Shown: positions 4,789 to 34,061 of the stretch, piece after piece
How the letters are laid out: each line of letters begins with the position of its first letter
How positions within the stretch are numbered: the stretch's first letter is position 1
Origin: an uncultured Pseudomonadota bacterium
Lineage (GTDB): Bacteria; Myxococcota_A; UBA9042; CAIXZC01
DNA: 34,061 nt
Assembly: GCA_937884235.1 (NCBI GenBank)
Contig: CALGBT010000815.1
Span: 1 to 34,061, forward strand
Direction: 5' to 3'
Notes under the pieces: model-generated
The model's input: the letters and a program-made list of their open reading frames with translations, nothing else
The model's database searches: none
What the model was told of the DNA's origin: nothing
Translations under genes and position numbers: made by a program

Positions 4789-7422
4789 ATGATGACCCGC
4801 ACGTGCTTCCTGGTTATGGGCCTGTCTCTAGCCTGTTCGTCGACCAATGCCAACATTGATTCGTCTGGGGCGCCGGGCGACGACGTTGTCTTTGTGGCCG
4901 ACGCCAGGGCCCCGGAGGGGGACCAGCGGTCACCACATGGCAAGGAGACGTTCACCGACGATATCCTGGTGGAGGGTGACAGTTCCTGGTCTCCAGGCTC
5001 GCCCGACGTCTCCCCAGAGCTCACCTTCGACGTCGCCCCCGACCTGCCCCCGGTAGCAGATGCCGCGGAGGAGCCGGACCTGCCAGTGGGTGAAGACGCC
5101 GTTGAAATGAATGCAGAACCAGATGTCCCGGTCATCTCCGGAGCCATCGAGGAGCCCTTTGATGACGACTCCATGTCCGACCCTGCCGCGACCACTGCCC
5201 TGTGGGGTACCAACAGCACTTTGACCCCTGCTGCGGCTGGTTTTGGTGACGGTAGCGACGGCGAGTTCGCACCGGTCTCTGACGTCATCCTGGATACCGC
5301 CAACGGCCCCTTCCAGTACACCTCCGTTCACATTCCCGAGGACGTTACGGTCTCGGCATCTGGCATCGCCCCGCTTGAAATCCTGGTGCAGGGTGAGGTC
5401 GATATTGCAGGTCTTATCACGGTTGCCGGCGACAACGGCGATGATGCCCTCGGCATCGATGGCGGCAATTCCCCTCTGGGTGGGGCCGGCGTGGCGGGAG
5501 GCTCCAATGGCGGCAGCGGCGGCGCCGGTGGCCTGGAGGCCGGGACGGACGGTGAAGGCATGGGGCTGGGAACCGGAGGAGTGTCCACCGCCATCGTGAC
5601 CTTCGTCTCCCCCGGCGGTGGCGGCGGATTTGGTGCGTTCGGGGCCGACGGCATGGCGTTCAATGCCAACGCCGCTGGCAGCGGCGGACCCGACTACGGC
5701 ACCAGCGCTCTGGTGGACCTGGAAGGTGGCTCGGGTGGCGGTGGCGGAGGCCCCTACGACCGCACCCCAGGGGACCCCGCCGGGGGCGGTAACGGAATCG
5801 TCGACATCGATGATGCTCCTGGTGCCGGCGGCGGCGGTGGCGGCGGTGCGGTGGCGCTGCGCGCCGGCAGCTCCATTAACATCAGCGGACGGATCGATGC
5901 CGACGGTGGCGACGGCGGCATCGGTGATTTCTCTGGCGGTGGCGGTGGCGGCAGCGGCGGGGCAATCCTCCTGGAGACCGCGGCAGAGTTGACTCTCGCC
6001 CAGGGGCTGCTCTCAGCCCGCGGCGGCAGAGGCAACATTTGCACCGATTCCAATCAACTGGCGTGGTGCTATGGCGGCGACGGCGGCGGTGGCCGCATTG
6101 TGCTGCGCACTGGTATCCCCATGACCGACGGCATTGTCAAGAACCCGGTACCGGTACCAACCTGGGCGCCGACCCAGGGAGGCGTAGACGGTGGGACCGG
6201 GGTTGACGGCGCCTTTGCGCCCCTGGCGGACATCGAACTCGATACCAACGGCGGGCCGTATTTCTTCAGTAGCGTTACTATCCCGGCAGGAGTGACCGTC
6301 ACCGCGGTGGGAGACCAGCCGCTGCGTGTCTACTCCCAGGGCAACCTGGATGTGCTGGGCACCATCGATGTCAGCGGTTACCAGGCCGGCACTGCCTATT
6401 CCATGTGCTGTTCGCAACCTGGACCGCCGGAGGCAGGTGCCGGCGGTCTCCCCGGCCCCGGTGGTTACCGCGGCGGCACGGGCGGCCTAGCCGGCGACGG
6501 CGAGGGCGGTTCCGGCCCGGGGGGCGGTGCAGGTTCGCTGGGCTCCGGCTCACCTGGGGCTGGGGCTTTCGCCGGGGGCGGCGGGGGCGGCGGTTACGGC
6601 GAAATCGGCCAGGTGGGAGGCTGCCCGGAAGAGGCCGCGGGCGGCCCCGTCTATGGTGTCCATTCGCTGGAGCCGCTGGAAGGCGGTTCCGGAGGCGGAG
6701 GAGCAGGCTGGACCAATGTCGCCGGACCTAACCCCGGCTCGGGCGGAGGCGGAGGGGGCGGCGCAGTGCACCTGCAAACCGCCTCCATGCTGCTCATGCA
6801 GGGCACTATCCGCAGCAACGGCGGTACCGGCGGGGTCAACACGGGCAGCGGCACCGGCGGGTCCTTCGGAGCCGGCGGCGGAGGCGGCAGCGGCGGGGCG
6901 ATCCTGGTCAAGGCCCACTCCGTCAGAGATTATGGCATCTATGAAGCAATTGGTGGAGGGGCCGGGGATATCAAACAGGGCGGGGGATGCAGCAGCACGG
7001 TTGATGTGCCGGGCCAGGGTCGCGGTGGACATGGAGGCGAGGGCCGCATTCGCTTCGAAACTGACGTGCCAGTGGGTTTCGTCTACCCCGTTGACGGTTC
7101 GTTCCTGGTGGACGAATACTCCGCCGAGTACCAGAAGAAGGCGGTTTCACTCTTCTACGATACCGGCGTGGACTGCCCCGACTACGGAGAACCCGCACTG
7201 GTACCCGCTCCATTGGCGAACAAGGTCATCTTCAGCATCCAGGGAGCCCCGGGCAGCGGAGGAGTGCCCGACGCTGGCAACGCCACCCCCTGGACCAACA
7301 GTATTGATGCCGTCGATTGCCACCGCTTCATCCGCTTCTCGGTGGAGTTCAAGACGTGGGGCCCTGGCGACCCGCTCCCGGCTCTGGAGGGTGTCACGCT
7401 GCCCTTCACCTACTCTCCCTGA
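4789..7422 (+). CDS. glycine-rich secreted lipoprotein with two tandem ~290-aa modules (putative beta-helix, GGA[IV]-motif type)
   Basis: GGAGGG RBS. Lipobox LSLAC-SS followed by an acidic/proline linker. Module 1 (aa ~154-440) and module 2 (aa ~467-756) align motif by motif. The motifs are DGxFAPxxDxxLDTxxGP, xxVTVxAxG, LEGGSGGGG, GGGGGGGAVxLxxxS, GGGGGSGGAIL and GGxGRIxxxT. A ~120-aa non-glycine C-terminal domain follows. Confidence 0.8.
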   Translation: MMTRTCFLVMGLSLACSSTNANIDSSGAPGDDVVFVADARAPEGDQRSPHGKETFTDDILVEGDSSWSPGSPDVSPELTFDVAPDLPPVADAAEEPDLPVGEDAVEMNAEPDVPVISGAIEEPFDDDSMSDPAATTALWGTNSTLTPAAAGFGDGSDGEFAPVSDVILDTANGPFQYTSVHIPEDVTVSASGIAPLEILVQGEVDIAGLITVAGDNGDDALGIDGGNSPLGGAGVAGGSNGGSGGAGGLEAGTDGEGMGLGTGGVSTAIVTFVSPGGGGGFGAFGADGMAFNANAAGSGGPDYGTSALVDLEGGSGGGGGGPYDRTPGDPAGGGNGIVDIDDAPGAGGGGGGGAVALRAGSSINISGRIDADGGDGGIGDFSGGGGGGSGGAILLETAAELTLAQGLLSARGGRGNICTDSNQLAWCYGGDGGGGRIVLRTGIPMTDGIVKNPVPVPTWAPTQGGVDGGTGVDGAFAPLADIELDTNGGPYFFSSVTIPAGVTVTAVGDQPLRVYSQGNLDVLGTIDVSGYQAGTAYSMCCSQPGPPEAGAGGLPGPGGYRGGTGGLAGDGEGGSGPGGGAGSLGSGSPGAGAFAGGGGGGGYGEIGQVGGCPEEAAGGPVYGVHSLEPLEGGSGGGGAGWTNVAGPNPGSGGGGGGGAVHLQTASMLLMQGTIRSNGGTGGVNTGSGTGGSFGAGGGGGSGGAILVKAHSVRDYGIYEAIGGGAGDIKQGGGCSSTVDVPGQGRGGHGGEGRIRFETDVPVGFVYPVDGSFLVDEYSAEYQKKAVSLFYDTGVDCPDYGEPALVPAPLANKVIFSIQGAPGSGGVPDAGNATPWTNSIDAVDCHRFIRFSVEFKTWGPGDPLPALEGVTLPFTYSP

Positions 7423-11879: not shown

Positions 11880-14800
11880 CTACCACTCAACATAGACGAC
11901 ACCGTTGGCACCTTTGCCGCCCGTGGGGCGACTGCCGTTGTAGCCGCCGGCGCCACCGCCGGAGCCATGTCCTTGACCGCCTTTGCCGGACCAACTCGCA
12001 CCGCCGTTGCCAGCAGTGGGGCCGGCCCCGTCGATGAGTAGGCCGCCGGCACCGCCGCCGCCGCTATGCGAAGAGGAGCCCGCAGCCCCGCCGGCCCCGG
12101 CAGTCAACGAGGCCAGCACAGCCCCGGCCAGGTTGTCAAAATGACCGCCACTGCCGCCCGAATAGGTGCAACCGTTCTGGCCGGCCGACCCGCCCTGGCC
12201 ACCCTTTCCTGCGCAGCCGGAATTGCCGGCACCGCCACCACCGCTGCCGCCATTACCCCCACCCGAGCCATTGGTATTCCCGCCGTTGCCGCCACTGGCA
12301 CTCAAGTAGCCCCCGAAGGAAGAGGTTGCCCCCTTGCTGCCCGGCGCGTCGTTGGTGTTGGCAACACCTCCATTACCGCCACCGCCGACCGTCACGGTCA
12401 CCACGCCAGCAACGTCGTAATTGCCGTAGAGAACGTAGCCTGAACCGCCGCCGCCGTAGTGGCTGCCGGCACCACCACCACCGCCACCAACCACTACGAC
12501 CCGCACAGTGCTTACCCCGGGTGGCACGGTGAAAGTCTGAGCGCCGCCGGTGTAAGTGAAGACCTTGTTGCCGGGCTGGTACTCCACGCAAGTCCCCGTC
12601 TGGCAGACGATTCCACCATCCTGGGTGCAGGCCGTGCCATCAGCCACGGGAGTGTAGAGACAGCCGCTACCAGCCTCGCAAGAGTCGTTGGTACATTCCT
12701 GGCTATCATCGCAGGTCAGGGCCGGCCCGCCGACGCAGGCCCCCTGGCTGCACTGATCCTGGGTAGTGCAGGCATTGGCATCATCGCAAGAGGCATCATT
12801 GGCGATGAAGGTGCAGCCCGCGGCAGGACTACAGCCATCGTCGGTGCAAGGGTTGCCGTCGAGACACTCAAGGGGTTCAGAACCGACACACACGCCGTCG
12901 ACGCAAGTGTCCGTCTTGGTGCACTGATTGTCGTCGTCACAGCTACCATCAATGGCCGTGTATTCGCAGCCGTTGGCGGGGTGGCAGGTATCGAGGGTGC
13001 AAGGATTGTCGTCATCACAATCGAGGGCACCGCCCGGTACGCAAGACCCATTGTCGCAAGCGTCACCAGTGGTGCACGCGTTGAAGTCTGTGCAGACCCC
13101 GGCGGTCGGCAAAAACTCGCAGCCCACGTTGGCATCGCAGCTATCGGCGGTGCAGATGTTACCGTCGTTGCAGTTGAGTTGCCCGCCGCCGGCGCATTGC
13201 CCCAATTCGCACTTCTCGCCCACGGTGCAGGCATCGCCATCATCGCAGGGAGCAGTATTGAAAGTGTGAATGCATCCCTGAAGCGGCGTGCAAGTATCAT
13301 TGGTGCACAGATTGTCGTCGTCGCAAGAGACCGCCTGAGTACCTTTGCAGGAACCGGCGCCGCAGATGTCGGCGAGGGTGCAGAGGTTGCCATCATCGCA
13401 GTCAGCTCCGTTAGCGGTGTGCACACAACCGGACTCCGGCGAGCACGAATCGTCGGTGCAGATGTTCTGATCATCGCAACCCAACGCACCGCTCCCCTGG
13501 CACTCGCCTTGAGCGCAAGTATCAACGGGAGTACAGATATTGCCGTCATCGCAGGGAGCAGCATTGTCGGCGTGAACGCAACCACCCGCAGGGTCGCAGG
13601 CATCGCTGGTGCACGGGTTCGCATCATCACAATCAAGCCACCCCTTGCCAACGCAAAGGCCACCAGAGCACAAATCGTTGAGAGTGCACGGGTTGCCATC
13701 GTCACATTTGCCGTCGTTGGGGACGTACTGACAGCCTTTCTTGGAATCGCAGGAATCGCTGGTGCAGTTGTTCTGGTCGTCGCAGGCCACCGCGATCTGG
13801 CCCTGACACTGGCCCTGGACACACGTGTCTGCCGCCGTGCAGAGGTCCTGATCGTCGCATGGTGCGCTGTTATGGGCGTACAGACAACCGCCCTGCGGAT
13901 TACACGAATCATTGGTGCAGACATCGCCATCATCGCAGTCTACGAGCCCCTCGAAAAGGCAATCACCGCCACCGCAATGATCGCCGAGGGTACAGTCGTT
14001 ACCATCGTCGCAGGGCTCAGCATTGGGCACGAAGGTGCAACCGCTGTTGTCGTCGCAGCTATCGTCAGTGCAGCCATTGGCATCGTCGCAAACCACCGGC
14101 ACCCCGCCCCCGCATTCGCCTTCGAAACAGGCATCACCCACGGTGCAAGGGTCGCCATCATCGCAGGCGAAACCCTGGTGATCCGGCACCAGTGCACATT
14201 CGCCCGTCCCCGGGTCACATGATGCCTTGACGCAAACTCCGTCAGGCCCTTCCGGTGCGGGGCAGGTCACCACCGTTCCCGGATCCACAAAGCACTGGTA
14301 AGGCAACTTGTCGAGTTGGCAGAAGAGCGTCCCGTTGCAAAGGTCACCATCTTCCAGAACAGCACAGTCGGCGTTGTCCTGGCATTCGCAGTCCACCGCA
14401 AAACCACTGCACTCGCCCTGGCTGCACTGGTCGTTGACGGTGCAAGGGTCACCATCATCGCAGGGCCCGGCGTTGAACTCCGCAGTGCACCCGCCAAGAC
14501 CATTGCAAAGATCGTCAGTACATGGATTGTCGTCGTCGCAGACAATGGGCAACCCGGTGCAGACGCCAGCTTCGCAGTGGTCACCCACGGTACAAGAGTC
14601 ACCATCCGCACACTCACCTTCCGAGAGGACTTGATGATCGCAACCCGCCTCTCCCATGCAGGAATCCTTGGTACAGGGGTTATCGTCATTACAAGGATTG
14701 ATGTAGTCCCCCTCCACTGCATTGGGTTCGTCGACCTCGCCATCGCAATCGTCGTCGATACCGTTGCATGATTCCAATTCCGGGACCGTGGCATCACAGT

Positions 14801-15533
14801 CAGTGAGACCCGCTTCGGCACAGAACCGCATGCCTTGACAGGTACCTATTTCATTAGCCACTTCACAGCCGGTCCAGAGCGACAACTCCACGGATCTTGA
14901 GGTGCAGGGGCAGACTCCGGCATCGGCAACACACTGCATGGTGGCGATGCCGTCCACGGTCTGGGCATCAACGCATGAAAAACCCCAGGGACAATCGCTG
15001 CCTTCAGCACAAACACTACCGCAGAACGCACCTTCGTCGCCGTAGTCCACGCAAACGTCCTCGGCACCGCTGGGACTCTTGCAGCTATCGCCACCATTGC
15101 ACGGCTTGCAGAGATTCGAGACATCGGACACGCAAATATAGACCACGTCGGGGTCAGCACCCGCCACCTGCTTGCACGACCATCCCGGGGGGCAATCCTC
15201 CTGGCAAGGAACCGTGCAAACCGCCTCTCCCATGTGCTCCACACACCAGCTCGACTGGCAATCGCCATTGCCCACGCAGGGGTCCAGAAAACATCCGGTT
15301 CCCGGCTCACACTCGACAAATGGCGCGTCCGGTCCCGAATCGAAACTCAACTCCGGCTCGATATAGAGGTCGGGCTCATCAGAAGCTTCCCCTGAGGAAG
15401 CCTCGTCCGGGACCGCAGATACGTCAGTCGTCGGGGTCGCATCCGGAACGTCGGCAACAGTAATTGTTGTCCCACCATTGTTGCAGGCAAAAAACATCAG
15501 AGTTGCGGCAAACAAAAAGCCAGTATTGCGCAT
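11880..15533 (-). CDS. giant cysteine-rich repeat lipoprotein, paralog 1 (C-terminal glycine-rich domain)
   Basis: ATG with GGAGG upstream. Lipobox MFFAC-NN followed by an acidic linker. Cys-rich head ends in CNGIDDDCDGEVDE. There are 12 bipartite 51-aa repeats (CDDGNxCTxxDxCxxGxC + CDDxNxCTxDxCxxxxGC). The C-terminus VFTYTGGAQTFTVPPGV...GGGGGG is a glycine-rich domain. Total length is 1217 aa. Confidence 0.92.
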   Translation of the reverse strand: MRNTGFLFAATLMFFACNNGGTTITVADVPDATPTTDVSAVPDEASSGEASDEPDLYIEPELSFDSGPDAPFVECEPGTGCFLDPCVGNGDCQSSWCVEHMGEAVCTVPCQEDCPPGWSCKQVAGADPDVVYICVSDVSNLCKPCNGGDSCKSPSGAEDVCVDYGDEGAFCGSVCAEGSDCPWGFSCVDAQTVDGIATMQCVADAGVCPCTSRSVELSLWTGCEVANEIGTCQGMRFCAEAGLTDCDATVPELESCNGIDDDCDGEVDEPNAVEGDYINPCNDDNPCTKDSCMGEAGCDHQVLSEGECADGDSCTVGDHCEAGVCTGLPIVCDDDNPCTDDLCNGLGGCTAEFNAGPCDDGDPCTVNDQCSQGECSGFAVDCECQDNADCAVLEDGDLCNGTLFCQLDKLPYQCFVDPGTVVTCPAPEGPDGVCVKASCDPGTGECALVPDHQGFACDDGDPCTVGDACFEGECGGGVPVVCDDANGCTDDSCDDNSGCTFVPNAEPCDDGNDCTLGDHCGGGDCLFEGLVDCDDGDVCTNDSCNPQGGCLYAHNSAPCDDQDLCTAADTCVQGQCQGQIAVACDDQNNCTSDSCDSKKGCQYVPNDGKCDDGNPCTLNDLCSGGLCVGKGWLDCDDANPCTSDACDPAGGCVHADNAAPCDDGNICTPVDTCAQGECQGSGALGCDDQNICTDDSCSPESGCVHTANGADCDDGNLCTLADICGAGSCKGTQAVSCDDDNLCTNDTCTPLQGCIHTFNTAPCDDGDACTVGEKCELGQCAGGGQLNCNDGNICTADSCDANVGCEFLPTAGVCTDFNACTTGDACDNGSCVPGGALDCDDDNPCTLDTCHPANGCEYTAIDGSCDDDNQCTKTDTCVDGVCVGSEPLECLDGNPCTDDGCSPAAGCTFIANDASCDDANACTTQDQCSQGACVGGPALTCDDSQECTNDSCEAGSGCLYTPVADGTACTQDGGIVCQTGTCVEYQPGNKVFTYTGGAQTFTVPPGVSTVRVVVVGGGGGGAGSHYGGGGSGYVLYGNYDVAGVVTVTVGGGGNGGVANTNDAPGSKGATSSFGGYLSASGGNGGNTNGSGGGNGGSGGGGAGNSGCAGKGGQGGSAGQNGCTYSGGSGGHFDNLAGAVLASLTAGAGGAAGSSSHSGGGGAGGLLIDGAGPTAGNGGASWSGKGGQGHGSGGGAGGYNGSRPTGGKGANGVVYVEW
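12630..14693 (-). repeat. in-frame tandem coding repeat array, 153-nt (51-aa) period, 12 units, split by a 75-aa insert
   Basis: The first Cys of the A half-repeat falls at aa 457, 508, 559, 610, 661, 712, 763, 814, 865 and 916, exactly 51 apart. Two more units precede the insert. Confidence 0.9.
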
Positions 15534-15694
15534 GAGGTGCCTCCGTAATCGTCACGCGATAGTACAGTCCGCGAGCCATTGCTGCAAGTCAGGCACCACG
15601 CGGGCCCGGTCGATTTTTTGTGCTTCTGCCCCTGCTCCTCCCGATATAGAGGATGGAGCAATCCTGCCCCAGCGACCGCAGCAAGGAGGCATCC

Positions 15695-16252
15695 ATGATC
15701 TTTCAGTGGACCATTCTGCTACTCATTTCTCCCCTTATGATGCCGGCCATGCCGGCAGGACGACCGCCTGACCCCGGGGAACTGGTGATAACCGAGATCA
15801 TGGTGGACCCACATGCGACAAAGGACACCTACGGGGAGTACCTGGAGGTCACCAACGTCAGCGACGACCCAGTCCAACTGCTCGGTCTCATAGTCCGGGA
15901 TCACGACCGTGACTGGTGCCCGGTGACACGGCCACTGCTGGTCCCAGCCGGCCGGGCCGTGGTCTTTGCCCGCCGCTGGGAACCGTCGGCCAATGGCGGG
16001 TTCTTCCCCAGCTACCTCTGCACGGGCCATGCGCTCCACCTCAAAAACGACCGCGACAGCATCGTCCTCGACTGGTACGGGGTGGACATCGACGAGGTCA
16101 CCTATCGAGCCCGGGAGTGGCCGCTAGAACCGGGCAAAGCCATGGAACTGGACCGCTCCTGCTATGACTCGGCCATCAACGATGAACCGTCGGCGTGGGC
16201 CAGGTCACGCACCCCCATGCCCAGCGGCGACTTTGGCACACCCGGGAAATAG
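15695..16252 (+). CDS. secreted lamin-tail-domain (LTD) protein
   Basis: ATG 15695 lies after AAGGAGG. There is a hydrophobic N-terminus. LVITEIMVDPHATKDTYGEYLEVTNVSDDPVQLLGLIVRD is the characteristic LTD opening motif. Length is ~185 aa. Confidence 0.75.
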   Translation: MIFQWTILLLISPLMMPAMPAGRPPDPGELVITEIMVDPHATKDTYGEYLEVTNVSDDPVQLLGLIVRDHDRDWCPVTRPLLVPAGRAVVFARRWEPSANGGFFPSYLCTGHALHLKNDRDSIVLDWYGVDIDEVTYRAREWPLEPGKAMELDRSCYDSAINDEPSAWARSRTPMPSGDFGTPGK

Positions 16253-18812: not shown

Positions 18813-21800
18813 ATGAATCGTTTCGCCCTTGCCGCAGCCCTTCTGCTCGCAACAACTCTCCTGCTGGCGTGCAGCAACCAGGGGGGCGTAACACTCCTCA
18901 AGGATGCCATGGATTCCCAACAGGGGGACGGCAAAACTGTGCTGGACATGGCGGTCGAAGAGAGCCTCAGCGACCTGCGGCACGACGCCTGGACTGAGGA
19001 CAACCGTGGCGATACTGCCGACCTCCGCGACGAGCCCAGCGACTTCGGCACACCTTGCTCCGACAACGACGACTGCCTTTCCGGGCTGTGCATCCCGCAT
19101 CGGGGTGAGCTGGTCTGCTCCCATGAATGTGTAGAAGAGTGCCCCGACGGATTCATCTGCAGTGCCATCACTTCCGGCGGCCCGGACATGTTCTTTGCCT
19201 GCATCAGCCTCTACCCGTCACTCTGCTTGCCCTGCTCGTCCAGCGACGATTGCGAGCCGGGCCCAGGCGTGCCCACGGCCTGCGTCATCTACCCGGGCGA
19301 GGGCTCCTTCTGCGCCACCCAATGCACTGAGGAGATTCTCTGCCCCGAGGGAAGCTACTGCCTCGACGTCGATACCATGGAAGGGGGCAGCGGCAACTAC
19401 TGCACCAGGAACCAGGGCCCCTGCGAGTGTACTCAGTTCGCCATTGCCACGGGCCTCAAGACGCCCTGCTCGGTGACCAACGACTTTGGCACCTGCTCCG
19501 GCAACCGGGTATGCCAGGCCGATGGTCTGACCGAATGTAATGCAGCAGTCCCCAACGAGGAGTTCTGCAACGGCGCCGACGACAACTGTGACGGCCAGGT
19601 AGACGAGGGTACCTGCGTCGATGACAACCCTTGCACCCTGGATGAATGCCAGCCCAACCAAGGCTGCATCTTCACCCCACAGGAGGGGATGGAGTGCGAC
19701 GACGGCGACCCCTGCACGGTTGCCGAGCTGTGCCTGGCCGGCATCTGCCAGGGGTCGCCGGTGACTTGCAGCGATGACAACCAGTGCACCGATGACCTCT
19801 GCAGCATCGACGGTGGCTGCTCCTTTGAGCCCAACCAGGATGCCTGTGATGACGGTGACCCGTGCACCGTTGGCGATACCTGCAAGCTGGGACTCTGCAC
19901 GAGCACACCGATTGCGTGCAACTGCACGGTCGATGCCGATTGCAAAGCCCTGGAAGACGGCGATGCCTGCAACGGCACTCTTTTCTGCGACGTCTCGCAG
20001 ATCCCATATCAATGCCAGCCCGTGCCCGGCAGCGTCGTTGACTGCCCGGCACCGGAGGGAAAGAACAAGCTCTGCATGGCCGCCTGGTGCGACCCGTCGG
20101 ACGGCAGCTGCTCGCTGGTTCCAGCCAACGGGGGAAACCCCTGTGACGACGGCAATAAGTGCACTTATGGTGAGAGCTGCAGCGACGGCGCCTGTGTTGG
20201 CGGCAAAGCCCTCAACTGCAATGACGGCGATCCCTGCACCGATGACGCCTGCCAGGCGACGACAGGCTGCACAGCCACCTTCAATGACGCCCCCTGCGAT
20301 AATGGCAACTTCTGCACCACCAATGACTTCTGCGTCGCCGGGGAATGTACCGCGGGAGAAGCGCTCAACTGCAACGACAACAACGCCTGTACCAACGATA
20401 TCTGCAACCCGGTCAAGGGCTGCCTGCACACCAACAGCAGTCAACCCTGCGACGACCTCGACCCCTGCACCGAGCAAGACTCCTGCTCCGGCGGATTCTG
20501 CCTGGGCACCGTCCCCAAGAATTGTAACGACAACAACCCCTGCACGGACGACATCTGCGTTCCCCTGGCGGGTTGCTCCTACAACAACAACAGCAATCCG
20601 TGCAGTGACGGCAATGCCTGTACGGTGGCCGACAAGTGCGTCGGTGGTTCCTGCAATCCCGGGAACACCCTTGATTGCGATGACGGCAATGTCTGCACCA
20701 ACGACTCATGCTCGCCTGCGGAAGGCTGCCAGCATGCCCCCAACAAGTCCCCCTGCGACGACAACAACTCCTGTACCTCGCAGGACCAGTGCGCTGCGGG
20801 CAAGTGCATCGGCAGTGCCGATGTTGATTGCGACGATGACAATCCCTGCACCAAGGATCTCTGCCTCGCCAATGGTGGTTGCCAACACGAGAATGTGGTG
20901 GCACCGTGTAGCGATGGCAACCCCTGTACTGCGGGGGACATTTGCGCCAACGGCGAGTGTCAACCTGGAGACTCTGTGGATTGCGACGATGGCAACGTCT
21001 GTACTGCCGATTCCTGCAGCCAGAGCAATGGGTTGTGCCTCCATTCCCCCACCCCCGGGGATTGTGACGACAACAACCCGTGTACAACGAAGGACGCCTG
21101 CGGTGGTGGCAAATGCGTCGGCACTACTCCTCCCGATTGCAACGACCAGAACGTTTGCACTACCGACTACTGCGACCCGGCCAGTGGCTGCGTTCACCTG
21201 CTCAACAGCGCACCCTGTGATGACGACAACCTTTGCACCACCAAAGACCAGTGCAACCTCGGCGAGTGCGCCGGCGGTCCAGCCCTCTCCTGCACCGACG
21301 GAAATCCCTGCACCGACGACGGCTGCAACGCGGCGACCGGCTGCACCTTCACGCCCAACACCACACCTTGCGACGATGCCAACGCATGCACTGAGGGCGA
21401 TACCTGCAAGTCCGGGTGGTGCGTAGGCGTCGCCTCCAGTTGCGACGATCTCAACCCCTGCACCGCGGACAGCTGCGACCCGGGGGTCGGTTGCCTGCAC
21501 CTGCCTGCGGCGGGTGCTTGTGACGACAACGATGCTTGCACCGGCGATGATCTCTGCGCCAATGGACTGTGCGGCAGCGGGCCCGCAGTCAACTGCAACG
21601 ACGGCAACATCTGCACTGCCGACGCCTGCGACGCCGATACCGGTTGCACGCACACACCGACGGACGGAGGGTGCGACGACGACAATGCTTGCACCGTGGG
21701 TGATTCCTGCAATGAGGGCACCTGTCAAGCCGGGGGCATAGCCCTTGACTGCGACGACAGCGAGGTCTGCACCGATGATTCCTGCGACCCTGACCTGGGC

Positions 21801-22388
21801 TGCCAGCACACCAACAACGCAGTAGCCTGTGATGACAGCAACCAGTGCACCGTGGGCGATGTCTGTGCCATTGGCGTTTGCACCGCCGGGCCAGCTACCC
21901 TCGACTGCAGTGACAACGACCCCTGCACCACCGACACCTGCGACCCGAACCTCGGGTGCCAGCACTCGGGAGGCGGCTGCCTGCAATTCAGTCACGCCTT
22001 CAGCGCCGGCCCCACCACAGGAGCCGCCTGCAACAAGTGGAACGCCTTCCGGGCCACGCTGACTGGCAACTACAGCAAGGTCACCATCAAGGGCACTTAC
22101 GACCAGGTCGGCGTCTCCTGCACCGGGGCCAGCGCCAATGCCATCTGCAACTCGCTGCGCACCAAATCGGCCGGCTCCTGGAGCTGCGGCGGGCGGACCT
22201 GGCGCACTGGGGACTGCGGCGGTGACATCGAGGTCAACGCCAATGGCGACATGTGCAATTGTCCGGGCAACGGTTACACCGTGCGACCCTGCATAGACTA
22301 CCCGGGGTCGTCAAACCCCAACTGGGGCGGAGCCCTCACAGAGACCTGCAACAGTCCAACGCAAACCCTTGAACTGATTTGCCAGTAG
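18813..22388 (+). CDS. giant cysteine-rich repeat lipoprotein, paralog 2 (C-terminal 11-Cys module instead of glycine-rich domain)
   Basis: Lipobox LLLAC-SN followed by an acidic linker. The head is colinear with paralog 1 and ends CNGADDNCDGQVDE. There are 14 bipartite ~51-aa repeats with the same insert after unit 2. The last 136 aa (CLQFSHAF...TLELICQ) are unrelated to the other two tips. Confidence 0.92.
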   Translation: MNRFALAAALLLATTLLLACSNQGGVTLLKDAMDSQQGDGKTVLDMAVEESLSDLRHDAWTEDNRGDTADLRDEPSDFGTPCSDNDDCLSGLCIPHRGELVCSHECVEECPDGFICSAITSGGPDMFFACISLYPSLCLPCSSSDDCEPGPGVPTACVIYPGEGSFCATQCTEEILCPEGSYCLDVDTMEGGSGNYCTRNQGPCECTQFAIATGLKTPCSVTNDFGTCSGNRVCQADGLTECNAAVPNEEFCNGADDNCDGQVDEGTCVDDNPCTLDECQPNQGCIFTPQEGMECDDGDPCTVAELCLAGICQGSPVTCSDDNQCTDDLCSIDGGCSFEPNQDACDDGDPCTVGDTCKLGLCTSTPIACNCTVDADCKALEDGDACNGTLFCDVSQIPYQCQPVPGSVVDCPAPEGKNKLCMAAWCDPSDGSCSLVPANGGNPCDDGNKCTYGESCSDGACVGGKALNCNDGDPCTDDACQATTGCTATFNDAPCDNGNFCTTNDFCVAGECTAGEALNCNDNNACTNDICNPVKGCLHTNSSQPCDDLDPCTEQDSCSGGFCLGTVPKNCNDNNPCTDDICVPLAGCSYNNNSNPCSDGNACTVADKCVGGSCNPGNTLDCDDGNVCTNDSCSPAEGCQHAPNKSPCDDNNSCTSQDQCAAGKCIGSADVDCDDDNPCTKDLCLANGGCQHENVVAPCSDGNPCTAGDICANGECQPGDSVDCDDGNVCTADSCSQSNGLCLHSPTPGDCDDNNPCTTKDACGGGKCVGTTPPDCNDQNVCTTDYCDPASGCVHLLNSAPCDDDNLCTTKDQCNLGECAGGPALSCTDGNPCTDDGCNAATGCTFTPNTTPCDDANACTEGDTCKSGWCVGVASSCDDLNPCTADSCDPGVGCLHLPAAGACDDNDACTGDDLCANGLCGSGPAVNCNDGNICTADACDADTGCTHTPTDGGCDDDNACTVGDSCNEGTCQAGGIALDCDDSEVCTDDSCDPDLGCQHTNNAVACDDSNQCTVGDVCAIGVCTAGPATLDCSDNDPCTTDTCDPNLGCQHSGGGCLQFSHAFSAGPTTGAACNKWNAFRATLTGNYSKVTIKGTYDQVGVSCTGASANAICNSLRTKSAGSWSCGGRTWRTGDCGGDIEVNANGDMCNCPGNGYTVRPCIDYPGSSNPNWGGALTETCNSPTQTLELICQ
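19614..21977 (+). repeat. in-frame tandem coding repeat array, ~153-nt period, 14 units, split by a 75-aa insert
   Basis: The A-unit first Cys falls at aa 444, 495, 546, 597, 648, 699, 751, 802, 853, 903, 954 and 1006. Spacing is 51 aa except three steps of 52, 50 and 52. Confidence 0.9.
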
Positions 22389-31297: not shown

Positions 31298-34061
31298 TTA
31301 GTAGGTGACCTTGATCTGGCCATGCCCCATGCGGACATCAGCCGTGGTGCTGCTCGCGGTAACACCCCCCACGTAGGAGGACCCGCCTCCACCGCCGCCA
31401 CCGCCGCAGTTCTGGTGGCCGCCGCCACCGCCACCGTAGTATCCGCCGCCGCCGGAGCCAGCGCTGCCGCACACATCACCGTCAGCCTCCCCCGCTCCCT
31501 TGCCACCCTGGCCAAGTTCCCCGGCAGTGCCAACGATGTAGTCGCAGCATGCAAGCCCCGTTGCCCCGGCCGCGCCGCCGCCAGCCTGCGTCCCCGCCTT
31601 CCCCCCTCTCCCGGGGGGCTGGTTGGGAATGCTGTCTGTTCCATCCTGGCCCGAAGTGCCGCCACCGCCGCCGCCGACTCCGCCCGTCCAGCCGCCAGAG
31701 CCGAAGCTGTATCCCGCGTGCCCGCCACCGCCGCCGGCAACGATCTTGCGGTCGCTCAACGCGGTGCCGCCGACCCGCACATCCGAGCCGCCGCCACCCC
31801 AGCCTTTGGCCCAGGAACTGACGTTCTTGCCGCCACCGTTCCAGCCCCCGGCACTACCTTTGCCCCCCACATAGAGGTGCAGAATCTGGCCGGGGGTGAC
31901 CGCCAGCGTACCAGTGGCCTTGCCACCCTTGCCGCCGTCGGGTACTTCGAAGCCATTACCTCCACCCTGTGCGCCATAGGCTTCAACCACCACCGACTTG
32001 ACACAAGGCGGCACCGTCCAGTCCTGCGTTCCGCCAGTGTAATCAAAGGTAATGGAGCCGGTCTCGCAGGCATCGATACACTCACCAGCCCAGCACTCCA
32101 GATCCTGGCCACACTCCGTACCGTTTGCCACCGGCACAAACTGACAGCCAGCCCCGGGGGCGCACGCATCGTCAGTGCACCCATTGGCGTCATCGCACTC
32201 CACCGCAATCCCCGGCTGACACTGGCCCGCACCACAGATGTCGCCATCGGTGCAGGCGTCGGCATCATCACAAGGTGCGGTGTTGGGAGTGTTCACACAG
32301 CCATCGACGGGGTGGCAGGAATCCGTGGTGCAAAGCTCATTGTCGTTGCAGCTGATCCCGGCCCCACCACCACACACGCCCCCGGCACAGAATTCATTGA
32401 CGGTACAGGCATCACCGTCGTCGCAGGGGACCGTATTGGGCACGTGCACACACCCGGCAACGGCATCGCAAGAATCATCTGTACACAAGTCGTCATCGTC
32501 GCAATCCAGGCCCGGACCGGCCTTGCACATGCCCCCTCCGCAAGCGTCGGCAACGGTACAGGCATTACTGTCATCGCAGGGCGCGGTGTTGTTCAGGAAT
32601 TGGCAACCGGTGTTGGGGTGACAGCTGTCGGTGGTGCACAGGTTACCATCTTTGCACTCCAGATTGCCGCTGCTGATACAATCCCCGAGGTGACAGTGGT
32701 CACCGGTGGTGCAAACGTCGGCATCGTCACAGGGGACGCTGTTGAGCAGGTGCAGGCAACCCACCGCCGGGTCACAACTATCGGTGGTGCAGAGGTTATC
32801 GTCGTCGCACCCGGGCGCAGTACTTCCCTTGCAAACCCCGGCAACGCAAGTGTCTACCAGCGTGCAGGCATTACCATCGTCACAGGCCGCCTCCTTGGGG
32901 ACAAACTGGCAGCCAAGTTCGCTGTCGCAGCTATCGTCGGTGCAGGGATTCTCGTCGACGCATGCCGCGGCCGGCCCCGGAGCGCATTCCCCGGCCAGGC
33001 AATGGTCCCCGACGGTGCACACATCACCATCCTGGCAAGGGGCCTGATTGGGCGTGTGGACACAGCCTGTATCCGGGTCACAGCTGTCATCCGTGCAAGG
33101 GTTATCGTCAGCACAAATTGCCGCGACGCCGGCGACACACTTACCGACCTGGCAACTGTCGCCGATGGTGCAAGCATCACCGTCATCGCACGCGAATTCA
33201 TCATGGTCCGGGATCAGACTGCACCCTCCCGCGGCCTCGAGGTCGCAAATCGATTGCTGGCAAATAGCATCAATACCGGTCGGAGCCGGACACTCCACCA
33301 CCGTCTCCGGCAGCACCACACACTGATAAGGCCACTTGTCCTTGTTGCAGCCTAACGTGCCATTGCAGAGGTCTCCGTCTTCGAACTGGGCACAGTCCTC
33401 GTCTGCCTGACAGTCACATGCCACCGGCGTCCCGAAACAACTGCCGTCCCCACAATAGTCACCGACTGTGCAGGCATCCCCGTCATCGCAGGCTGAAGTG
33501 TTGTTGGTGAACTCGCAGCCGCCAAAACCGTCGCAGGCATCATCGGTGCAGGGATTGCTATCATCACAGGCCACCGGGGAACCAGCGCAGACTCCCTCTG
33601 CGCAATGGTCACCGACGGTGCAAGCATCGCCATCAATGCACTCACCCGCGCTCAGCGCCTCATGAACACAGCCGGCCTCTCCTTTGCAGAGATCAGTGGT
33701 GCAAGCATTGCCATCGTCGCAGGGGCCCACATACTGACCCTCGTGGAATGTCCCCTCGTCCACATCACCATCACAGTTGTCGTCAACCCCATTGCAGACC
33801 TCGGCTGCGGGCACCTGGGCATCGCAGTCCCCCAGGCCATCGTCGAGGCAAACCCGCTGGCCCACACAGGCGCCAAAGTCGTTGGCCCGGGAGCAGGGGG
33901 TCCACAACCCCAGAGATACCGAGGTATCGGTGCAGGGGCAGACCCCCGCATCCGCCACGCACTGGACAGTGCTTACACCGTCCACCGTAACCGTCTCCAA
34001 ACAGGAGAAACCCCATGGGCAGTCCTCGTCAACGGCACACTTCGCCCCGCAGAAACTACCC
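31298..34061 (-). CDS. giant cysteine-rich repeat lipoprotein, paralog 3 (5' end beyond window; C-terminal glycine-rich domain)
   Basis: The frame stays open to nt 34061: upstream of the ORF-track TTG it reads GSFCGAKCAVDEDCPWGFSCLETVTVDG, colinear with paralog 1 GAFCGSVCAEGSDCPWGFSCVDAQTVDG. It carries CNGVDDNCDGDVDE, 9 bipartite 51-aa repeats and the same insert. The C-terminus is ITFDYTGGTQDWTVPP...AYGAQGGG...GGGGSDVRVGGTALSDRKIVAGGGGG. Confidence 0.92.
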   Translation of the reverse strand, partial: GSFCGAKCAVDEDCPWGFSCLETVTVDGVSTVQCVADAGVCPCTDTSVSLGLWTPCSRANDFGACVGQRVCLDDGLGDCDAQVPAAEVCNGVDDNCDGDVDEGTFHEGQYVGPCDDGNACTTDLCKGEAGCVHEALSAGECIDGDACTVGDHCAEGVCAGSPVACDDSNPCTDDACDGFGGCEFTNNTSACDDGDACTVGDYCGDGSCFGTPVACDCQADEDCAQFEDGDLCNGTLGCNKDKWPYQCVVLPETVVECPAPTGIDAICQQSICDLEAAGGCSLIPDHDEFACDDGDACTIGDSCQVGKCVAGVAAICADDNPCTDDSCDPDTGCVHTPNQAPCQDGDVCTVGDHCLAGECAPGPAAACVDENPCTDDSCDSELGCQFVPKEAACDDGNACTLVDTCVAGVCKGSTAPGCDDDNLCTTDSCDPAVGCLHLLNSVPCDDADVCTTGDHCHLGDCISSGNLECKDGNLCTTDSCHPNTGCQFLNNTAPCDDSNACTVADACGGGMCKAGPGLDCDDDDLCTDDSCDAVAGCVHVPNTVPCDDGDACTVNEFCAGGVCGGGAGISCNDNELCTTDSCHPVDGCVNTPNTAPCDDADACTDGDICGAGQCQPGIAVECDDANGCTDDACAPGAGCQFVPVANGTECGQDLECWAGECIDACETGSITFDYTGGTQDWTVPPCVKSVVVEAYGAQGGGNGFEVPDGGKGGKATGTLAVTPGQILHLYVGGKGSAGGWNGGGKNVSSWAKGWGGGGSDVRVGGTALSDRKIVAGGGGGHAGYSFGSGGWTGGVGGGGGGTSGQDGTDSIPNQPPGRGGKAGTQAGGGAAGATGLACCDYIVGTAGELGQGGKGAGEADGDVCGSAGSGGGGYYGGGGGGHQNCGGGGGGGGSSYVGGVTASSTTADVRMGHGQIKVTY
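32114..33721 (-). repeat. in-frame tandem coding repeat array, 153-nt (51-aa) period, 9 units, split by a 75-aa insert
   Basis: The A-unit first Cys falls at ORF-track aa 271, 322, 373, 424, 475, 526 and 577, exactly 51 apart. Two more units precede the insert. Confidence 0.9.

What the first reader, a model, noticed from the sequence alone, without database searches (positions are those of the whole stretch)
12630..14693. Strict 51-residue periodicity of a bipartite 4+4-Cys repeat with variable unit number (12 / 14 / 9)
Each unit is an A half (CDDGNxCTxxDxCxxGxCxGxxxxx, 25 aa) plus a B half (CDDxNxCTxDxCxxxxGCxxxxNxxx, 26 aa). In paralogs 1 and 3 the first Cys of successive A halves is exactly 51 aa apart across 10 and 7 units, without a single indel. 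Paralog 2 deviates by one residue only three times. Residues between the Cys/Asp/Asn/Thr framework positions vary freely. A fixed length with variable surface is what a rigid spacer or ruler, or a variable binding surface on a constant scaffold, would look like. Unit number differs between paralogs, so expansion and contraction has occurred.
Basis: seen in the sequence. Interest (0 to 1): 0.7.

Follow-up and report, generated by a model that had tools for sequence, protein, structure and literature searches.

The report
Cysteine-repeat stalks on myxobacterial lipoproteins
Three large lipoproteins of an uncultured myxobacterium carry exactly periodic cysteine-rich repeats that belong to the known but structurally unsolved "Dictyostelium repeat" family. 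The repeats most likely form stiff, disulfide-chained stalks that hold different binding domains away from the cell, so the pattern is real and tidy but it is a member of a known repeat family.

Summary
Three paralogs (11880-15533 -, 18813-22388 +, 31298-34061 -) hold 70 four-Cys half-repeats that alternate A (25 aa) and B (26 aa). The 51-aa period is exact over 10 units in paralog 1 and 7 in paralog 3. It is off by one residue three times in paralog 2.

The B half is Pfam PF00526 (Dicty_CTDC, E 1e-53 to 1e-67). The A half is a sister module that the model does not reach.

AlphaFold2 predicts a chain of beta-hairpin modules (pLDDT 94.8). The only solved look-alike is the disulfide-rigidified arm of the Entamoeba Gal/GalNAc lectin heavy chain. 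Cys counts are odd at both ends of the arrays, which argues that disulfides cross module borders.

The proteins look like lipobox-anchored stalks carrying swappable C-terminal heads (glycine-rich, C-lectin, fibrinogen-C, D8C, MAM). Unit number changes only by whole AB units between orthologs.

Variable positions are under purifying selection (omega 0.04-0.29), so a diversifying binding surface is not supported. Family-wide, only 44-71% of units are exactly 51 aa, with no length compensation, so a precision ruler is not supported either.

Arginine is almost absent from the arrays, and this is unexplained.

The parts
11880..15533 (-). Paralog 1, complete gene (1217 aa): lipoprotein with a Dicty_CTDC-type array and a Gly_rich_2 head
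   Evidence: ORF and translation. Pfam PF00526 1.3e-57 in 12 stretches and PF21722 2.7e-15. Orthologs at 74-85% identity have the same length.
15483..15533 (-). Paralog 1 signal peptide ending in lipobox Cys17 (MFFAC)
   Evidence: Read from the sequence. Orthologs have APGC, VTGC and VVAC. 147 of 202 full-length homologs have a lipobox-like motif.
15324..15482 (-). Acidic, fast-evolving linker (aa 18-70), probably a disordered tether
   Evidence: It has the highest dN of any segment (0.32-0.71). The equivalent segment of paralog 2 has pLDDT about 30.
14694..15323 (-). Conserved Cys-rich N-domain (aa 71-280, 27 Cys), ending in a MopE-like CNGxDDDCDGxVDE motif
   Evidence: The equivalent region in the paralog-2 model has pLDDT about 90. 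The Cys count is odd in 68 of 70 homologs. Weak PF11617 hit, E 0.023.
14391..14693 (-). Head array B-A-B-A (aa 281-381; half lengths 27, 24, 26, 24)
   Evidence: It has 16 Cys in all 70 parsed homologs.
14166..14390 (-). 75-aa insert with 10 Cys that splits the array at the same place in all paralogs
   Evidence: Only sub-threshold Pfam hits.
12636..14165 (-). Main array of paralog 1: 10 AB units, exact 51-aa period, 80 Cys, 0 Arg, net charge -91
   Evidence: AF2 model of aa 457-660 has pLDDT 94.8.
12564..12635 (-). 3-Cys cap (C-T-x6-C-x2-G-x-C), a truncated A-like module that closes the array
11883..12563 (-). C-terminal glycine-rich head (PF21722 Gly_rich_2)
18813..22388 (+). Paralog 2, complete gene (1191 aa): lipobox LLAC, 14 units, unassigned Cys-rich head
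19614..19916 (+). Paralog 2 head array B-A-B-A (aa 268-368)
20142..21983 (+). Paralog 2 main array: 12 AB units with A-to-A spacings 51 x8 plus 52, 50, 52, closed by a single Cys
   Evidence: Orthologs P0122 and P0125 lack exactly aa 636-737.
21984..22385 (+). Paralog 2 C-terminal 134-aa, 10-Cys head with no family match
   Evidence: No Pfam hit at E<=10. Only 8 relatives in hand. AF2 pLDDT below 50.
31298..34061 (-). Paralog 3, 5'-truncated by the window end: 9 units and an ALK/LTK-type glycine-rich head
   Evidence: The frame continues upstream of the listed TTG start.
33419..33721 (-). Paralog 3 head array B-A-B-A
32120..33190 (-). Paralog 3 main array: 7 AB units, exact 51-aa period
31301..32119 (-). 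Paralog 3 4-Cys cap plus glycine-rich head (PF12810 ALK_LTK_GRD, 1.5e-14)

Best explanation
The repeats form the stalk of a family of cell-surface lipoproteins from uncultured Myxococcota.

Proposed layout. Each protein is anchored by an N-terminal lipidated Cys. This is inferred from the lipobox. Next come a short disordered acidic tether and a conserved Cys-rich N-domain. Then comes a chain of small beta-hairpin modules of two alternating types. Type B is a bona fide Dicty_CTDC repeat, in which C3 and C4 flank a 3-residue turn. Type A is a sister module with a 2-residue Gly turn. A variable C-terminal head does the binding.

Why the period is so exact. Within a module, the four Cys and the Asp/Asn/Thr/Gly residues that cap the turns leave no room for indels. 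Only the tail after the fourth Cys can change length. At least one disulfide appears to cross every module border, so the array would be a covalently chained, strongly polyanionic rod. The 51-aa period is simply 25 + 26.

Reach. Reach is adjusted in evolution by gain or loss of whole AB pairs, which keeps the A/B alternation intact.

Status of each step.
- Shown: the sequence pattern, family membership of the B half, whole-unit indels, and purifying selection.
- Predicted: the hairpin-module fold.
- Inferred: lipid anchoring, surface exposure, inter-module disulfides, rigidity, and the head as the functional end.
For: - Family membership. PF00526 scores 178-223 bits against a cut-off of 27, and the stretches coincide with B halves.
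- Fold. AF2 of four units gives pLDDT 94.8. It is all beta, with C3 and C4 as cross-strand neighbours in both halves. The same pattern runs along full-length paralog 2, with a signal helix, a pLDDT-30 linker and a pLDDT-90 N-domain.
- Structural analog. The only PDB matches are the Entamoeba HgL chains 9gjb/9gjc/9gjf (E 5e-5 to 2e-3). The HgL Cys-rich region is built of 20-35-aa, 4-Cys beta modules joined by inter-module disulfides, and its arm is described as rigidified by inter-domain disulfides (PMC12948311).
- Cys parity. In paralog 1 the counts are N-domain 27, head array 16, insert 10, main array 80, cap 3. In paralog 2 they are 25, 16, 10, 96, then 1 closing Cys. The N-domain count is odd in 68 of 70 homologs, the C-terminal part is odd in 58 of 70, and the total is even in 56 of 70. 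Two odd ends separated by the whole array are satisfied only if pairing is relayed through it.
- Framework constraint. There are 0 non-synonymous changes in 192 framework codons across 4 orthologs. True Cys loss occurs in only a handful of about 8,500 halves.
- Architecture. Lipobox motifs are common and C-terminal anchors are absent. Heads in relatives lie C-terminal to the array: Lectin_C, Fibrinogen_C, D8C_UMOD, InhA-like MAM, Gly_rich_2 and ALK_LTK_GRD.
- Paralogy. At least 15 paralogs occur in one MAG.
- Unit changes. Indels of 102 aa and 52 aa correspond to whole units. Relatives have 10, 11 or 12 main units.
- Age of the repeats. Units are old and not homogenised: DNA identity is at most 0.67 and TRF finds no 153-nt array.
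Against: - No coordinates were available, so rod geometry, rigidity and disulfide pairing were not read from the model.
- Foldseek TM-scores to HgL are low (at most 0.18), and there is no sequence similarity to any solved structure.
- The single double-Cys loss seen (P0181: A-C2 together with the following B-C3) does not fit the HgL pairing direction.
- Non-framework residues are 57-76% conserved between orthologs. This is more than a purely passive spacer needs.
- The near-total exclusion of Arg hints at a surface property under selection that a spacer role does not explain.
- Genomic context gives no partner genes.
- No experiment exists for any member.
Confidence: 0.6

Rival explanations
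1. The array itself is the binding surface. Each unit would present its own conserved set of exposed residues on a constant scaffold, to bind a polymer, a mineral or a cation-coated surface. Dictyostelium matrix proteins built of this repeat sit in a cellulose-containing sheath.
For: - Non-framework positions are only 25% identical between units but 57-76% identical between orthologous units, so each unit keeps an identity of its own.
- The arrays carry about -9 charge per unit and exclude Arg about 30-fold relative to Lys.
- Dicty_CTDC proteins EcmA and EcmB are matrix proteins (PMC4931340, PMC9117722).
Against: - Omega is 0.04-0.29, with no hypervariable class.
- These positions evolve faster than the N- and C-domains, as exposed scaffold residues would.
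- Unit number varies between close orthologs without loss of the gene.
- Swappable lectin-like heads already provide binding modules.
Confidence: 0.2
2. These are extracellular matrix or cross-linking proteins. After release from the cell they would form a disulfide- or Ca2+-linked network. In that case the repeat number matters for fibre properties, not for reach.
For: - They belong to the same repeat family as the Dictyostelium slime-sheath and stalk-tube proteins.
- One database source names a relative 'extracellular matrix protein'.
- There are many paralogs per genome.
- 14 of 70 homologs have an odd total Cys count, which could allow intermolecular bonds.
Against: - A lipobox is present in most members, and the total Cys count is even in 56 of 70.
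- Each paralog has a distinct globular head, which is typical of receptors and adhesins, not of bulk matrix.
Confidence: 0.12
3. The arrays are chiefly divalent-cation (Ca2+) binding modules. The invariant D3, N5, T8 and D10/11 would be ligands, as in cbEGF, LDL-A or thrombospondin type-3 repeats, so that cation load controls stiffness.
For: - Asp, Asn and Thr are invariant next to Cys.
- The arrays are 15-16% Asp with net charge -61 to -91.
- A-half residues align weakly to the fibrillin cbEGF N-terminus, E 0.95.
Against: - There is no hit to EGF_CA, TSP_3 or Ldl_recept_a models.
- The fibrillin match is at chance level.
- The same residues can be explained as turn caps.
- No metal site could be inspected.
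Confidence: 0.08

Closest known systems
Pfam PF00526 Dicty_CTDC, the 'Dictyostelium (slime mold) repeat' of EcmA, EcmB, PsiA and relatives
   Same: The B half has the family's C-x5-C-T-x-D-x-C-x4-G-C pattern. It scores about 20 bits per copy, or 217 bits for ten B halves. Both sets are secreted, Cys-rich and tandemly arrayed. The family still has no solved structure of its own (listed as such in PMC8078820).
   Different: - Here every second module is an A type (C-x5-C-T-x2-D-x-C-x2-G-x-C). It matches only profile positions 1-10 and scores 14 bits, below the cut-off.
- The unit is therefore a 51-aa heterodimer. From memory, and not tested here, the amoebal proteins have a uniform 24-aa repeat.
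- The host is bacterial and the protein is lipid-anchored.
- It has a conserved N-domain, an insert and swappable heads.
[quoted passage not shown]
   Same: These are the only solved structures found by Foldseek (E 5e-5 to 2e-3). The modules are 20-35 aa with four Cys and antiparallel strands. They are chained by inter-module disulfides into an elongated, rigidified arm. Cys parity here points to the same kind of chaining.
   Different: - There is no detectable sequence similarity.
- TM-scores are at most 0.18.
- HgL modules are irregular in length, whereas these are strictly 25 and 26 aa.
- The disulfide pattern here is unverified.
Myxococcus xanthus TraA (variable domain + cysteine-rich repeats + MYXO-CTERM)
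   Same: It is a myxobacterial cell-surface protein in which a recognition domain is carried on Cys-rich repeats (PMC13184517). It is a functional analog for the stalk-plus-head reading.
   Different: - The polarity is opposite: the TraA head is N-terminal and the anchor C-terminal.
- There is no PA14-like domain, no MYXO-CTERM and no DUF4215-type repeat in the three paralogs.
Tandem cbEGF / TNFR-CRD type disulfide-rich rods of animal extracellular proteins
   Same: Both are small disulfide-pinned beta modules in tandem that form extended stalks carrying or forming binding sites. They appear as weak Foldseek neighbours: 4-1BB, Notch EGF, ADAM10.
   Different: No model of these families matches. 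All such Foldseek matches have E>0.5.

Membership tests
Pfam PF00526 Dicty_CTDC | Whole-protein score above the curated gathering cut-off (27 bits) | tested here: met
   191.6, 222.7 and 177.5 bits for the three paralogs.
Pfam PF00526 Dicty_CTDC | Roughly 24-aa unit with four Cys spaced C-x5-C-x4-C-x5-C and a CT.D.C....GC core | tested here: met
   All 35 B halves fit, one of them with a 1-residue insertion. A B-only concatenate scores 216.8 bits in 10 stretches.
Pfam PF00526 Dicty_CTDC | Every module of the array is recognised by the family model | tested here: not met
   An A-only concatenate scores 14 bits (E 0.045) and matches profile positions 1-10 only. The stretch counts of 12, 13 and 9 equal the number of B halves, not of all halves.
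Pfam PF00526 Dicty_CTDC | Secreted or extracellular protein | tested here: met
   Signal peptide plus lipobox in paralogs 1 and 2 and in 147 of 202 homologs. This is a sequence pattern only.
Entamoeba HgL-type chained pseudo-domain arm | 20-35-aa modules with four Cys and antiparallel beta strands | tested here: met
   Predicted only. DSSP of the AF2 models shows it, with pLDDT 94.8.
Entamoeba HgL-type chained pseudo-domain arm | Significant structural superposition | tested here: inconclusive
   Foldseek E 5e-5 to 2e-3 and probability 0.57-0.90, but TM at most 0.18 and rmsd above 20 A over long rods.
Entamoeba HgL-type chained pseudo-domain arm | Inter-module disulfides (C1-C4 within a module, C2 and C3 to the neighbours) | tested here: inconclusive
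   Odd Cys counts at both ends require border-crossing bonds. The exact pairing could not be read. C3 and C4 are cross-strand neighbours, which may favour a local C3-C4 bond. One co-loss case disagrees with the HgL direction.
Entamoeba HgL-type chained pseudo-domain arm | Sequence homology | tested here: not met
   phmmer and a profile search of the PDB gave no HgL hit at E<=10.
TraA-like myxobacterial receptor | PA14-like variable domain, DUF4215/Myxococcus Cys-rich repeats, MYXO-CTERM tag | tested here: not met
   No such Pfam hits in the three paralogs. There is no hydrophobic C-terminal tail in 213 of 214 homologs.
Calcium-binding EGF / TSP type-3 / LDL-A repeats | Match to the family model; Ca2+ ligand consensus | tested here: not met
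   No hits at E<=0.01. The only hit is a chance-level alignment to fibrillin cbEGF, E 0.95. Metal binding itself is not testable with these tools.

The most novel reading that the evidence does not exclude
The A/B heterodimeric 51-aa unit may define an undescribed class of covalently chained, arginine-free polyanionic nanorod. Uncultured Myxococcota would use it as a length-adjustable stalk, changed in steps of one AB pair, for a large repertoire of eukaryote-like recognition heads (C-lectin, fibrinogen-C, D8C, MAM, ALK-type glycine-rich). The same module lineage may underlie the Dictyostelium matrix repeats and the Entamoeba lectin arm. That would imply an old bacterial origin and transfer between bacteria and Amoebozoa.
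Probability: 0.2. Interest if true: 0.65.

Novelty: new member of a known kind. Interest (0 to 1): 0.38.

Why it matters
PF00526 is a 30-year-old repeat family with no solved structure and no known mechanism.

- The family is far larger in bacteria than its name suggests. There are 24,037 clusters at 50% identity, and some proteins have more than 100 half-repeats.
- It folds with high predicted confidence into a hairpin-module chain.
- Its only solved analog is a 2026 amoebal lectin arm.

If the chained-rod model holds, these arrays are natural, modular, disulfide-locked spacers whose length changes in fixed steps. That would be useful for annotating thousands of "hypothetical" myxobacterial surface proteins, and possibly as engineering parts. 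The near-absence of arginine is a clean, testable compositional rule without an explanation.

Tried and rejected
- NCBIfam gave no family for any paralog.
- PDB sequence searches, with a single sequence and with a 51-sequence profile, gave nothing except a chance-level fibrillin match.
- Foldseek against viral predicted structures gave nothing with E<0.09.
- TRF found no DNA-level tandem repeat of 75, 78 or 153 nt. Recent slippage or duplication is therefore rejected, in line with unit DNA identity of at most 0.67.
- Cys co-loss was tried as a way to deduce disulfide pairs. It failed because Cys is almost never lost. Most apparent losses were compensated 1-residue shifts, and only one double loss was seen.
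- dN/dS is limited by saturated dS (above 1) even for the closest ortholog. Only relative dN and upper-bound omega are usable.
- A test for length compensation between A and B halves found none.
- Genomic context in the window and in four related contigs showed no conserved partner genes apart from ordinary synteny.
- The paralog-2 head has no Pfam hit, only 8 relatives and pLDDT below 50, so it is uninterpretable.
- The paralog 1 and 3 heads gave no PDB hit to ALK/LTK by phmmer. Only the Pfam profile links them.
- BLASTP between the glycine-rich heads, and against the glycine-rich 877-aa lipoprotein, found no similarity.
- A DUF7107 hit arose only on an artificial A-A concatenate and was disregarded.
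Full report
**What is at the coordinates.** Bases 12630-14693 lie inside a 1217-aa minus-strand ORF (11880-15533, paralog 1) and cover its aa 281-968. Two paralogs lie at 18813-22388 (+, 1191 aa) and 31298-34000 (-). The third gene is cut by the window: its reading frame continues to base 34061 and matches the N-domain of paralog 1, so the TTG start listed by the ORF finder is an artefact. The long plus-strand ORF 12459-14222 is an Ala/Gly/Val-rich shadow ORF. The surrounding genes are ordinary Gram-negative housekeeping genes: SecDF, ABC-F, an alpha-amylase, a two-component system and a TonB receptor.

**Check of the observation.**
- Anchoring on C-x5-C-T gives 24, 28 and 18 half-repeats, 70 in total.
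- After a conserved B-A-B-A block (27, 24, 26, 24 aa) and a 74-75-aa insert with 10 Cys, the halves alternate A (25 aa) and B (26 aa).
- A-to-A spacing is exactly 51 aa for 10 units in paralog 1 and 7 units in paralog 3. In paralog 2 it is 51 except 52, 50 and 52.
- Column statistics over 35 A and 35 B halves show an invariant framework. In A it is C1, D3, C7, T8, D/E11, C13, G16, C18. In B it is C1, D3, C7, T8, D10, C12, G17, C18. The other columns have 2-3.4 bits of entropy.
- The strict motif occurs 69 times in the three genes and nowhere else in six frames. Shuffled paralog 1 gives a mean of 0.04 copies against 24 observed.

**Family assignment.** Pfam PF00526 (Dicty_CTDC, the "Dictyostelium (slime mold) repeat") matches at 1e-57, 2e-67 and 3e-53, with 12, 13 and 9 stretches. 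These stretches are the B halves. A concatenate of the ten B halves of paralog 1 scores 217 bits in 10 stretches. The ten A halves score 14 bits, below the 27-bit cut-off, and match only profile positions 1-10, the shared CDDGNxCTxD start. The array is therefore a strict alternation of a bona fide Dicty_CTDC repeat with a sister module. That module has one residue more between C2 and C3 and one fewer between C3 and C4. In dictyostelids this domain marks the matrix proteins EcmA, EcmB and PsiA, with 6-15 proteins per genome (PMC4931340, PMC9117722, PMC4406040). A 2021 survey lists the family among repeat families without a known structure (PMC8078820).

**Relatives.**
- More than 4000 proteins match each paralog at E<=1e-10. 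They are nearly all unnamed or labelled "cysteine-rich repeat protein".
- Genome hits are MAGs labelled uncultured Myxococcales, Myxococcota or Deltaproteobacteria. One MAG contributes at least 15 loci among the best 80 of 316.
- A four-unit profile finds 24,037 clusters at 50% identity (6,441 at E<=1e-30). Some of these proteins reach 5,481 aa and more than 100 half-repeats. One protein is almost purely B type.

**Architecture.**
- Paralogs 1 and 2 begin with a signal peptide ending in a lipobox Cys. Orthologs have APGC, VTGC and VVAC, and 147 of 202 full-length homologs have such a motif. None of 214 has a hydrophobic C-terminal tail, with one exception.
- The full-length AF2 model of paralog 2 shows a signal helix, a linker of pLDDT about 30 (aa 20-72), an N-domain of pLDDT about 90, the hairpin arrays at 70-85, and an unresolved head.
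- The heads differ. Paralog 1 has Gly_rich_2, paralog 3 has ALK_LTK_GRD, and paralog 2 has an unassigned 134-aa 10-Cys domain. Relatives carry Lectin_C, Fibrinogen_C, uromodulin D8C or an InhA-like MAM domain, all C-terminal to the array.

**Structure.** Four units of paralog 1 (aa 457-660) were modelled with 50 in-register windows from the paralogs and homologs. The model has pLDDT 94.8 and is all beta. The A half is a short meander with tight turns at the conserved glycines. The B half is one longer hairpin. In both halves C3 and C4 are direct cross-strand neighbours, across a 2-residue turn in A and a 3-residue turn in B. This accounts for the different Cys spacing.

No solved structure is similar by sequence. 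[quoted passage not shown] The paper on that structure describes 20-35-aa, four-Cys, three-stranded pseudo-domains of "novel fold". [quoted passage not shown]

**Disulfide chaining (inference).** Coordinates could not be read, so I used Cys bookkeeping.
- In paralog 1 the N-domain has 27 Cys, the head array 16, the insert 10, the main array 80, the cap 3 and the head 2. In paralog 2 the counts are 25, 16, 10 and 96, then one closing Cys, then 10 in the head.
- In 70 parseable homologs the N-domain count is odd in 68. The head array and insert are always 16 and 10. The C-terminal part is odd in 58, and the mature total is even in 56.
- Two odd segments at opposite ends of the array can both be satisfied only if one Cys per module is handed to the next module. 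That means at least one disulfide crosses each border.
- The exact pairing remains open. Cys loss is too rare to map pairs: there are a handful of true losses in about 8,500 halves, and the one double loss does not fit the HgL direction.

**Evolution.**
- Paralog-1 orthologs at 74-85% identity keep all 10 main units without a single indel in the array. More distant relatives have 11 or 12 units.
- Two paralog-2 orthologs, one of them on a syntenic contig, lack exactly aa 636-737 (102 aa, two units). Another relative lacks 52 aa, one unit. Unit number therefore changes by whole AB pairs.
- The units are old. Non-framework identity is 0.25 both within and between genes, DNA identity is at most 0.67, and TRF finds no 153-nt repeat.
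- Across four orthologs the 192 framework codons have no non-synonymous change. Variable array positions have dN 0.10-0.39. The N-domain has 0.04-0.16, the C-terminal head 0.04-0.25 and the disordered linker 0.32-0.71. Omega is 0.04-0.29, with dS saturated.
- Non-framework residues are 57-76% identical between orthologous units.

This is relaxed purifying selection on an exposed scaffold, not diversification.

**How strict is the period?** In 301 relatives the A half is 25 aa in 84% of cases (24 aa in 11%). The B half is 26 aa in 77% (27-29 aa in 19%). A+B equals 51 in 71% of units, against 69% expected if the two lengths vary independently (correlation -0.007). In 139 more distant representatives only 44% of two-step spacings are 51. 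All variation sits in the tails after the fourth Cys. The exactness in this window therefore reflects module-level packing and shared ancestry. It does not reflect selection on a 51-aa ruler.

**Interpretation.** The best-supported reading (confidence 0.6) is a lipid-anchored surface protein. Its Dicty_CTDC-type array is a disulfide-chained, polyanionic stalk. The stalk presents a variable C-terminal recognition head, and its reach is tuned by whole AB units. M. xanthus TraA is a functional analog with opposite polarity and unrelated repeats (PMC13184517). Three rivals are not excluded but have less support: the array itself as a binding surface, a released matrix protein, and a Ca2+-binding polyanion. 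It is a new bacterial member of a known repeat family, with an undescribed alternating A module. Interest is moderate.

**Unexplained.** The arrays contain no arginine at all in the window, over 1,481 residues. In 214 homologs there are 75 Arg against 2,207 Lys in 105,417 array residues. Neighbouring genes have 3-10% Arg and more Arg than Lys. Net charge is about -9 per unit.

Noticed in passing
window 12636-14165 (-), 20142-21983 (+), 32120-33190 (-): Arginine is essentially excluded from the arrays. There are 0 Arg in 1,481 array residues of the window. In 214 homologs there are 75 Arg against 2,207 Lys in 105,417 residues. Other genes of this 61% GC window have 3-10% Arg and more Arg than Lys. 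The arrays carry about -9 net charge per 51-aa unit. No explanation was tested.
   Followed up: partly
window 34000-34061 (-): Paralog 3 runs off the window end. The frame upstream of the listed TTG start reads GSFCGAKCAVDEDCPWGFSC, which matches the N-domain of paralog 1. The gene is therefore 5'-truncated and its true unit count applies only to the part seen.
   Followed up: yes
window 21984-22385 (+): The C-terminal 134 aa of paralog 2 (10 Cys) match no Pfam family even at E<=10. They have only 8 relatives among 214 homologs. They were modelled at pLDDT below 50, so this is an unassigned head domain.
   Followed up: partly
window 11883-12563 (-) and 31301-32050 (-): The heads of paralogs 1 and 3 are glycine-rich domains (PF21722 Gly_rich_2 and PF12810 ALK/LTK glycine-rich domain). 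This links bacterial surface proteins to the ligand-binding domain of animal ALK/LTK receptors at profile level only. phmmer finds no PDB hit, and BLASTP finds no similarity between the two heads.
   Followed up: partly
window 4789-7422 (+): An 877-aa predicted lipoprotein (LSLAC lipobox) has two long glycine-rich segments and local GC of 0.69. It has no Pfam hit and no BLASTP similarity to the glycine-rich head of paralog 1. It is conserved next to the ABC-F gene in orthologous contigs.
   Followed up: partly
window 14166-14390 (-), 19917-20141 (+), 33191-33418 (-): A 74-75-aa insert with exactly 10 Cys interrupts the array after the second unit in all three paralogs and in all 70 parsed homologs. 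It might be a knee or hinge. It gives only sub-threshold Pfam hits (Dicty_CTDC 0.15, EGF_Tme5 0.36).
   Followed up: partly
window 14730-14780 (-) approx. (paralog 1 aa 252-268): A CNGxDDDCDGxVDE motif lies directly before the first repeat. It resembles the MopE 'putative metal-binding motif' (PF11617, E 0.023, below cut-off) and is conserved in the homologs used for parsing.
   Followed up: no
window 15653-16252 (+): A 199-aa lamin-tail-domain (LTD) protein lies head-to-head with paralog 1. It keeps that position in two orthologous contigs (L079 and the P0002 contig). Its relation to the repeat protein is unknown.
   Followed up: no
P0216, P0218, P0259 (representative search): Giant relatives of 4,900-5,400 aa carry 105-107 half-repeats. 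P0259 is almost purely B type (103 B, 4 A), so the A/B alternation is predominant but not obligatory in the wider family.
   Followed up: partly
L083 14161-18705; L082 18735-23276: Contigs of related MAGs carry further large Cys-rich, eukaryote-like extracellular proteins next to family members. They include TSP_3 plus MopE motifs, and Dicty_CTDC plus SBBP. This suggests a broad repertoire of such surface proteins in this lineage.
   Followed up: no
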